Below, piece by piece: positions 13,102-13,531 of a DNA stretch of 46,450 bases. Within the stretch, counting starts at the first letter, position 1. Every line of letters begins with the position of its first letter. The DNA comes from Octopus sinensis (lineage: Eukaryota): the NCBI RefSeq assembly GCF_006345805.1, contig NW_021834601.1, forward strand, positions 1 through 46,450, read 5' to 3'. The position numbers and the translations under genes are program-made. Under the pieces are notes generated by a model. That model ran no database searches. It had not been told where the DNA came from and saw only the letters and a program-made list of their open reading frames with translations.

Positions 13102-13531
13102 TTGTCTAGTGAATGTTTTAAAAAAAGATGGGTGAATGTAGCAAGGATGGCACGTATGAATGACGAAGCCACCTTGACTATGATTCTATGAACCGTAAAA
13201 ATTAATACAGAGAGTTGCTTATTTGCAAAAAAAAAAAGAAATATAACATGTGACTTCATTGACCGAGGTTACCGTGGTCTTTTCCGTAGGCTTTTCTTTC
13301 CACGAGTAAACCTCACCTGTCCCCCCTTTACACTTCATATTGACATTTCTGTGATAACGATCCCTATTGACCCAATTTTGTTCCTCCCCCCCTTTTTTGT
13401 CCTCTTTATTTCCATTTACGATCCCTTTTGATCGAAAACCAAACCCCCTTCTTTTACCCCCAAAAGAAAAGCTCTACCTTGTAATTTTGTCCTGTCTGTG
13501 TGCAGTCCTGTGTGGCTAATAAAGAAACATA
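13102..13531 (+). mobile_element. 3' end of a Tx1/L1-like LINE (ORF2 C-terminus + 3' UTR), 5'-truncated
   Basis: 13102-13191 reads LSSECFKKRWVNVARMARMNDEATLTMIL*, with the FxxRW motif typical of L1/Tx1 ORF2 ends. Pyrimidine-rich UTR ending AATAAAGAAACATA. Confidence 0.65.

What the first reader, a model, noticed from the sequence alone, without database searches (positions are those of the whole stretch)
13478..13531. Probable partner LINE of SINE-A: shared 3' tail with a Tx1/L1-like element
Seen: LINE-like end TTTGTCCTGTCTGTGTGCAGTCCTGTGTGGCTAATAAAGAAA aligns ungapped at 33/42 with the SINE-A tail TTTGTCCCCTCTGTGTGTAGCCCCTTGTGGGCAGTAAAGAAA (copy ending about 38286). Both form a hairpin just before the A-rich end. 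Upstream is an FxxRW-containing ORF end (13102-13191). SINE-A TSDs are 10-18 bp, as expected for TPRT. Established: shared SINE/LINE tails mark the mobilising LINE in stringent-type pairs, mostly L2/CR1/RTE. Inference: a stringent SINE-Tx1/L1 pair, which would also fit the U6 chimera.
Basis: partly seen in the sequence, partly recalled or inferred. Interest (0 to 1): 0.72.

Follow-up and report, generated by a model that had tools for sequence, protein, structure and literature searches.

The report
Octopus SINE carries Tx1 LINE tail
An abundant short jumping element in what is likely octopus DNA ends in the same 44 bases (about 76% identical) as a highly repeated L1/Tx1-type retrotransposon, which likely supplies the enzyme that copies it, a kind of pairing rarely described for this retrotransposon group.

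Summary
The tail match is real: 33/42 as stated, 30-36 of 44 over 18 SINE-A units, and 0 of 2,000 and 0 of 10,000 shuffles reach it. 13101-13534 is a 5'-truncated copy of a very repetitive LINE. Contigs from 4 of 4 runs continue upstream in frame as KRKVRVEREV (translated by hand). The ORF end is 76% identical to a zf-RVT protein whose relatives are EN-RT-zf ORF2s of the L1 group, automatically named Tx1. SINE-A ends at a fixed base in register with the LINE, without poly(A), followed by 9-18 bp TSDs. A sister SINE has the same body and another tail. Not supported: the hairpins fold no better than shuffles and show no covariation, and U6 chimeras are not L1-specific. The LINE family, but not SINE-A, continues in (ATCT)n. 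Best reading: SINE-A took its tail from this Tx1-type lineage and is likely mobilised by it (0.68); strict recognition is unproven. Published shared-tail pairs in the L1 group that I found are from plants and an alga.

The parts
13101..13529 (+). 5'-truncated copy of a highly repeated L1/Tx1-type LINE (ORF2 end plus 3' UTR)
   Evidence: Summed contig depth 2.6e5-1.6e6 against 46-106 in the right flank in run X1; loose ends before 13101 in 4 of 4 runs
13102..13191 (+). C-terminal 29 codons and stop of ORF2
   Evidence: 22/29 identical to the end of zf-RVT protein P0175, E 2e-13; score 112 against at most 51 for 200 shuffles
13192..13485 (+). LINE 3' UTR, not shared with SINE-A
   Evidence: In-register identity falls to 3/10 per block upstream of the last 50 nt; repeated in all 4 runs
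13486..13529 (+). 44-nt tail shared with SINE-A, ending in the same register (AAAGAAACA against AAAGAAATA)
13530..13534 (+). TATCT: start of the (ATCT)n that follows many family copies; terminal repeat or target site, unresolved
   Evidence: Loose ends behind 13534 read ATCT repeats in 3 of 4 runs
6711..6941 (+). Full-length SINE-A (231 nt), 18-bp TSD (17/18)
38065..38288 (+).
8186..8888 (+). Full-length U6 (8186-8291) fused to three SINE-A units; weak TSD
   Evidence: Rfam RF00026, 111 bits
14832..15427 (+). Three-unit SINE-A array
17129..17692 (+). Three-unit SINE-A array
16143..16355 (-). SINE-A with 16-bp TSD (15/16)
23980..24210 (-). SINE-A with TSD of 13/13
2392..2598 (-). SINE-A with 14-bp TSD (partly CA repeat)
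388..527 (-). 5'-truncated SINE-A with 9-bp TSD
28573..28802 (-). SINE-A whose end reads AAAGAAACA like the LINE
11100..11325 (-). Sister SINE: same head and body, different tail ending in (ATT)n; control for tail exchange (also about 13960-14149 and 14230-14455, minus strand)
24538..25754 (+). Decayed RT region of the same Tx1-type lineage
   Evidence: tblastn 63-78% to P0001, pieces of P0102; sits with P0001/P0002/P0102 in the tree
11601..12121 (.). Decayed pieces of the same lineage: zinc-finger region on minus (12043-11601), RT piece on plus (12008-12121)
45795..46184 (+). Decayed endonuclease-end region of the same lineage
   Evidence: tblastn to P0004 aa 189-324, E 7e-10

Best explanation
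SINE-A and a highly repeated L1/Tx1-type LINE share their last 44 bases; SINE-A likely took this tail from that LINE lineage and is likely copied by its ORF2 protein, which would start reverse transcription at the shared end rather than at a poly(A). Shown: the tail homology, the LINE's identity and repetitiveness, the fixed in-register 3' end without poly(A), the TSDs, and a sister SINE with the same body but another tail. Inferred: a Pol III SINE RNA binds this lineage's ORF2p through the tail; the endonuclease nicks the target and target-primed reverse transcription makes a 9-18 bp duplication; the tail was gained by a template switch onto a tRNA-type head and body. The donor may be a sister subfamily rather than the one at 13101, since the 23% gap is not decay of this copy. 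Untested: whether recognition is strict.
For: Tail match beyond chance and limited to the last 44-50 nt of both elements. It is specific: SINE-A tails score 39 and 44 against the LINE UTR, tails of 6 other SINE copies 14-20, and all 8 score 14-20 against the window's RTE 3' region. The LINE is repeated in 4 of 4 runs from 3 coded organisms, and loose ends continue in frame as KRKVRVEREV (translated by hand): 10/10 with P0002 and 9/10 with P0175. The ORF end is 22/29 to P0175. P0175 is 69-70% identical to RT-bearing P0002/P0102, and P0102 is 47% identical to full-length EN-RT-zf P0004. P0004 scores 236 bits to human L1 ORF2 and at most 61 to R2. The top Atlas cluster for P0102 is automatically named 'Transposon TX1 ... 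149 kDa protein family', 0.98. In 6 of 13 loci the best TSD starts right after ...AAAGAAATA, so there is no poly(A). 76% over 44 nt lies in the 72-95%, 35-61 bp range reported for bivalve pairs (PMC11481361, passage). The window LINE copy differs from the family majority at 8 of 434 sites in run X1 and SINE-A units are 91-98% like their majority, so both are fairly young. O. vulgaris has 80 L1-Tx1 families, 13 recently active (PMC13282606).
Against: No stem-loop beyond chance, and 0 of 7-8 pairs with change on both sides. Identity is only about 76% although both elements are young, and no closer LINE variant was seen (one variant in 3 contigs is 22/30 to SINE-A, the same as the window copy, counted by hand). 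Family copies continue in (ATCT)n, while none of 13 SINE-A loci does or lies beside one of the window's 3 (TATC)n arrays. The LINE copy has no adjacent TSD (score 2, reached by 67 of 180 mismatched pairs). No single DNA molecule joining RT to this tail was seen: the link is a chain of protein matches and short contigs. Other LINE clades of the genome could not be screened (no genome held).
Confidence: 0.68

Rival explanations
1. The tail is homologous, but SINE-A is now copied by a different LINE (another clade or a distant Tx1 family carrying a similar tail), and the element at 13101 is only a relative of the donor.
For: 23% divergence between young elements; (ATCT)n follows the LINE but not SINE-A; RTE, Dong-R4 and CR1 each cover more of the O. 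vulgaris genome than L1-Tx1; SINEs exchange tails often (PMC4824008, PMC11481361, passages).
Against: The window's RTE 3' region does not match; TSDs of 9-18 bp are longer than the 1-9 bp reported for platypus U6-L2 chimeras (PMC4476161); both ends stop in the same register.
Confidence: 0.16
2. Reverse direction: a short 5'-truncated SINE-A inserted at the end of a Tx1 master copy and became its new 3' end, so the match says nothing on who mobilises SINE-A.
For: A captured 44-nt truncated SINE end would look the same; SINE-A is abundant (21 units in 46 kb).
Against: The sister SINE shows that the SINE-A tail is an added module after the body. The LINE has AATAAA where most SINE-A units have AGTAAA. 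Published cases are read as LINE to SINE (PMC3747384, passages).
Confidence: 0.12
3. Chance or convergence of two T/G-rich ends with a polyadenylation-like signal.
For: The match is short; part of it is A-rich and TG-rich.
Against: 0 of 10,000 shuffles reach 33 even with the A-rich 10 nt fixed; the next best window position is 24/42; both matches are terminal.
Confidence: 0.04

Closest known systems
Maize/sorghum ZmSINE2, ZmSINE3 with LINE1-1_ZM; Chlamydomonas SINEX-3_CR with L1-1_CR (PMC3472496, PMC3747384)
   Same: tRNA-type SINE sharing about 45-80 terminal bases with an L1-group LINE; the only 3 L1-tail SINEs among 58 pairs in that survey.
   Different: Those are green lineages with a solid hairpin (-10.8 to -17.7 kcal/mol, compensatory changes). 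Here: an animal, a Tx1-type LINE, only a weak 4-bp stem, and no homopolymer end.
Crocodilian SINEU with Tx1-Mar (PMC4494074)
   Same: An animal SINE thought to be mobilised by a Tx1 element.
   Different: Inferred from shared target preference; no LINE sharing the 3' end of SINEU-1 was found; SINEU has U1/U2 heads and poly(A). Here the link is a shared tail.
Stringent L2/CR1/RTE/Nimb pairs (eel UnaL2-UnaSINE; bivalve pairs, PMC11481361, PMC4824008)
   Same: Shared terminal 35-61 bp at 72-95%, tail exchange among SINEs with one body.
   Different: Other LINE clades; many have a supported stem-loop. A shared terminal repeat in such pairs is recalled, not read here.
Octopus tRNA-derived SINEs OK, OR1, OR2 (Ohshima and Okada 1994; seen only as a citation in PMC4758252 and PMC4824008)
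   Same: SINE-A may be one of these or one of the tRNA-Core/tRNA-Deu classes reported as dominant in octopus (PMC8967140).
   Different: Sequences could not be compared; no octopus pair is in the 58-pair table.
Mammalian L1 with Alu (relaxed type)
   Same: L1-group ORF2, TSDs of similar length, U6 chimeras.
   Different: Alu shares only poly(A) with L1; SINE-A has no poly(A) and shares a defined tail.

Membership tests
L1 group (L1/Tx1) non-LTR retrotransposon | ORF2 with APE endonuclease, RT and C-terminal zinc-binding region | tested here: met
   Indirect chain: window end to P0175 (zf-RVT) to P0002/P0102 (RT, zf-RVT) to P0003-P0034 (most with PF03372 and PF00078). Not seen on one DNA molecule.
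L1 group (L1/Tx1) non-LTR retrotransposon | RT closer to L1 than to other clades | tested here: met
   P0004: 236 bits to human L1 ORF2, at most 61 to R2; P0002: 66 against 30; far from the window's RTE in trees. Only L1 and R2 were available as named references.
L1 group (L1/Tx1) non-LTR retrotransposon | Many 5'-truncated copies sharing a 3' end | tested here: met
   Depth about four orders above the flank, sharp ends at 13101 and 13534 (summed depth is not a copy number)
L1 group (L1/Tx1) non-LTR retrotransposon | Target-site duplication around the copy | tested here: inconclusive
   None adjacent; a distant 14/15 match at 10567-10581 is unexplained
Tx1 clade | RT groups with named Tx1 elements | tested here: inconclusive
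   Atlas automatic name Tx1 for P0102. In unnamed trees the lineage is separate (SH-aLRT 99) from the group scoring highest to human L1 (P0052, 361 bits). No named Tx1 reference was available; the Atlas gave no Tx1 name for the anchor P0045.
Tx1 clade | Frequent target preference (for example microsatellites) | tested here: inconclusive
   (ATCT)n follows many copies; tail or target cannot be told; Kibi and Koshi target (TC)n and (TTC)n (PMC4494074)
Stringent SINE/LINE pair | Shared 3'-terminal sequence in register | tested here: met
Stringent SINE/LINE pair | Conserved stable stem-loop with compensatory changes | tested here: not met
   z near 0, different registers, no both-sided change in 17 tails; power is low with one LINE copy. 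Hence filed as a shared-tail pair, not as a stringent pair.
Stringent SINE/LINE pair | Shared terminal repeat (feature recalled) | tested here: not met
   LINE family (ATCT)n; SINE-A none
Stringent SINE/LINE pair | Concurrent activity | tested here: inconclusive
   One LINE copy 1.8% from its majority; SINE-A units 2-9% from theirs; no landscapes
Stringent SINE/LINE pair | Tail required for mobilisation by the LINE protein | not testable with these tools
   Needs a retrotransposition assay
Relaxed L1/Alu type | Poly(A) tail as the only shared feature | tested here: not met
   SINE-A ends at a fixed base with the TSD directly behind
tRNA-derived SINE (octopus OR1/OR2, CORE type) | tRNA-like head with A and B boxes | tested here: inconclusive
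   A- and B-box-like motifs seen by eye against a recalled consensus; ARAGORN found 0 genes and Rfam gave no tRNA hit at the heads
tRNA-derived SINE (octopus OR1/OR2, CORE type) | Sequence identity to the named families or the CORE domain | not testable with these tools
   No repeat library on hand

The most novel reading that the evidence does not exclude
An animal Tx1-type LINE recognises its RNA strictly through a 44-nt tail without poly(A) and drives one of the most abundant octopus SINEs. It would be the first animal shared-tail pair in the L1 group, and a direct test system for the idea that L1-group elements were ancestrally stringent and lost this only in mammals and some plants.
Probability: 0.4. 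Interest if true: 0.76.

Novelty: new variant of a known kind. Interest (0 to 1): 0.6.

Why it matters
L1-group LINEs are the recognised exception to the shared-tail rule: 3 of 58 pairs despite over 800 L1-clade families, all three in green lineages (PMC3472496, PMC3747384). An animal Tx1-type case would fill that gap and make the 'ancestrally stringent, later relaxed' model testable in an animal lineage. It also names a candidate engine for part of the octopus SINE expansion (SINEs are 11.7% of the O. vulgaris genome, mostly unclassified; PMC13282606 supplement). It remains a variant of a well-known mechanism.

Tried and rejected
No whole genome was held, so there is no full-length consensus, age landscape or screen of all LINE ends. 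phmmer with the 32-aa ORF end against 1.84 billion representatives gave 0 hits at E 0.001; the link came through the RT fossil at 24854 and a C-terminal search. The metagenome scan gave 1 locus among 595 stretches, L001, a false positive with no match to the LINE proteins; the scan covered 29 of 64 parts. No RNA holder was listed on record; runs X12 and X17 are only guessed to be RNA, so nothing is claimed on expression. Hairpin: rejected as evidence. U6 chimera as an L1 marker: rejected. A single twin-primed insertion spanning 10582-13530 was considered. For it: a 14/15 match at 10567-10581, reached by 1 of 2,000 shuffles, and an inverted ORF2 piece. It was not adopted because the inverted piece resembles the P0002 subfamily rather than P0175, is far more decayed, and is followed by a forward RT piece. 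Cluster look-ups gave no useful names. PMC4176376 mentions 'TX1' only as mutant names. Earlier scan findings: nothing by sequence or place and one unrelated note by words.

Full report
Setting. The window is repeat-rich animal DNA. I read it as octopus from the look of its SINEs and microsatellites; that is recalled, not a tool result. No whole genome was held. SINE-A occurs as 21 units that are 91-98% identical to their 231-nt majority sequence.

The observation. 13486-13527 matches 38245-38286 at 33/42, and the SINE-A majority at 34/44. Over 18 of 21 units (3 with indels or a short end left out) it is 30-36 of 44. No shuffle reached it: maximum 27 in 2,000 shuffles of the LINE segment, and maximum 31 in 10,000 in-register shuffles with the A-rich end fixed. 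The best other window position is 24/42. Identity falls to 3/10 beyond the last 50 nt. The hairpins are 4-bp stems that fold no better than shuffles. They pair in registers one base apart, and none of the 7-8 pairs changes on both sides in 17 aligned tails.

What the LINE-like stretch is. Contigs of 4 of the 24 listed runs (3 coded organisms) were laid on 12960-13680. In run X1 the summed depth is 2.6e5-1.6e6 over 13110-13534 (1.8e5 in the edge bin 13085-13109), against 46-106 over 13560-13680; the other three runs show the same step. Summed depth is not a copy number, but the stretch is clearly highly repeated. Loose ends before 13101 in all four runs agree, and those of X6 read in frame KRKVRVEREV (translated by hand), so the window copy is 5'-truncated at 13101. 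Loose ends behind 13534 are ATCT repeats in 3 of 4 runs. A search with another fossil in the window (24854) gave P0002 (RT plus zf-RVT), whose end contains KRKVRVEREV and RWVNVAR. A C-terminal search gave 7 proteins among 52 candidates. One, P0175, matches the window's ORF end at 22/29 (score 112 against at most 51 for 200 shuffles over 181 proteins). P0175 is 69-70% identical to P0002 and P0102, and P0102 is 47% identical to the full-length EN-RT-zf protein P0004. P0004 scores 236 bits to human L1 ORF2 and at most 61 to R2. The Atlas's top cluster for P0102 carries the automatic name 'Transposon TX1 uncharacterized 149 kDa protein family'. In trees of unnamed hits the lineage forms its own well-supported group, apart from the group closest to human L1. 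L1-group membership is thus firm, and Tx1 is likely but not anchored on named references. RT and tail were not seen on one DNA molecule.

The SINE's end. Of 13 loci, 5 have clear TSDs (9/9, 14/14, 17/18, 15/16, 13/13), each matched by only 1 of 180 mismatched flank pairs; 3 are weak, 1 lies in (TA)n and 4 have none. In 6 loci the TSD begins directly after ...AAAGAAATA. SINE-A thus has a fixed end without poly(A), in register with the LINE's ...AAAGAAACA, and one copy (28573) ends as the LINE does. TSD starts (GGTTA, GGCTT, TATAT, TGTAT, TATAA, TATCG) are not of the mammalian TT/AAAA type (recalled). A sister SINE (3 copies) shares head and body up to TCGACT and then has an unrelated tail. Tails of it and of a third family score 14-20 against the LINE UTR, against 39 and 44 for SINE-A, and none matches the window's RTE 3' region. 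The tail is therefore an exchangeable module, and only SINE-A carries the Tx1-type one.

Mechanism. Most likely SINE-A gained the last 44-50 nt of a Tx1-type LINE by template switching and is copied by that lineage's ORF2p through target-primed reverse transcription started at the shared end (0.68). The steps after the sequence facts are inferred. Against strictness: no stable stem-loop, only 76% identity, and the (ATCT)n that follows the LINE but not SINE-A. If that repeat is a target (as for Kibi and Koshi, PMC4494074), SINE-A does not share it in 13 loci; if it is a tail, SINE-A lacks it. Several SINE TSDs do begin with or contain TAT, as does the sequence after the LINE end. Rivals: another LINE is the present partner (0.16), the LINE captured a SINE end (0.12), chance (0.04). 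The U6 fusion at 8186-8888 is real, but such chimeras also arise with L2, RTE and their SINEs (PMC4476161).

Comparison with print. Ohshima's survey lists 58 pairs, with only 3 L1-tail SINEs, from maize/sorghum and Chlamydomonas, and none with Tx1 or from octopus (PMC3472496 passages; PMC3747384 passages and Table 1). SINEU was tied to Tx1-Mar by target preference, without a shared 3' end for SINEU-1 (PMC4494074 passages). Bivalve partners are CR1, CR1-Zenon, L2 and Nimb (PMC11481361 passages; PMC4824008 passages). The 2026 O. vulgaris annotation counts L1-Tx1 and SINE families; the parts I read name no such pair (PMC13282606, part 1 of 3 and its supplement). I also read passages of PMC4758252, PMC5786205, PMC8967140 and PMC4176376. 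Ten searches showed no report of this pair or of an animal tRNA-SINE with a Tx1 tail. The library lacks most subscription papers, and I could not see Repbase, Dfam, SINEBase, Ohshima and Okada 1994 or the supplements of the papers other than PMC13282606, any of which may record it.

Verdict. A real shared tail between SINE-A and a Tx1-type LINE: a new variant of a known kind, filed as a shared-tail pair and not as a proven stringent pair. Interest 0.6.

Noticed in passing
window 8523, 8707, 15062, 15246, 17129, 17512, 38290, 38400 (minus): Extra SINE-A units in tandem arrays (period 184) nearly all start at head position 48-49, in or at the loop of a predicted 12-13 bp head hairpin. This suggests cleavage and joining of SINE RNA, template jumps, or self-targeted insertion; one array begins with such a unit at its 5' end.
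   Followed up: partly
window 8186-8888: Full-length U6 fused to a three-unit SINE-A array with a weak TSD.
   Followed up: partly
window 11100-11325, 13960-14149, 14230-14455 (minus): Sister SINE with the SINE-A head and body and a different tail, in two copies ending in ATT repeats; partner LINE unknown.
   Followed up: partly
window 10567-10581 and 13528-13542; 11601-12121: 14/15 direct repeat about 3 kb apart, bracketing an inverted zinc-finger piece and a forward RT piece of the same LINE lineage; unexplained.
   Followed up: partly
window 38213-38477: Two SINE-A arrays tail to tail form a long palindrome (weak Rfam miRNA hits below threshold).
   Followed up: no
window 42488-43745: RTE-like LINE with long open frames (RVT_1 hit; clade recalled from its motifs).
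   Followed up: no
window 12122-12290: Decayed piece resembling a mariner transposase C-terminus (recalled motif, untested).
   Followed up: no
window 6245-6640, 7642-8080, 12500-12730, 33270-33570, 37600-37910: A third SINE family with an internal microsatellite; several copies end in AAGAGT-type repeats, and it shares a GGGGTCGAT..CGACT motif with SINE-A.
   Followed up: no
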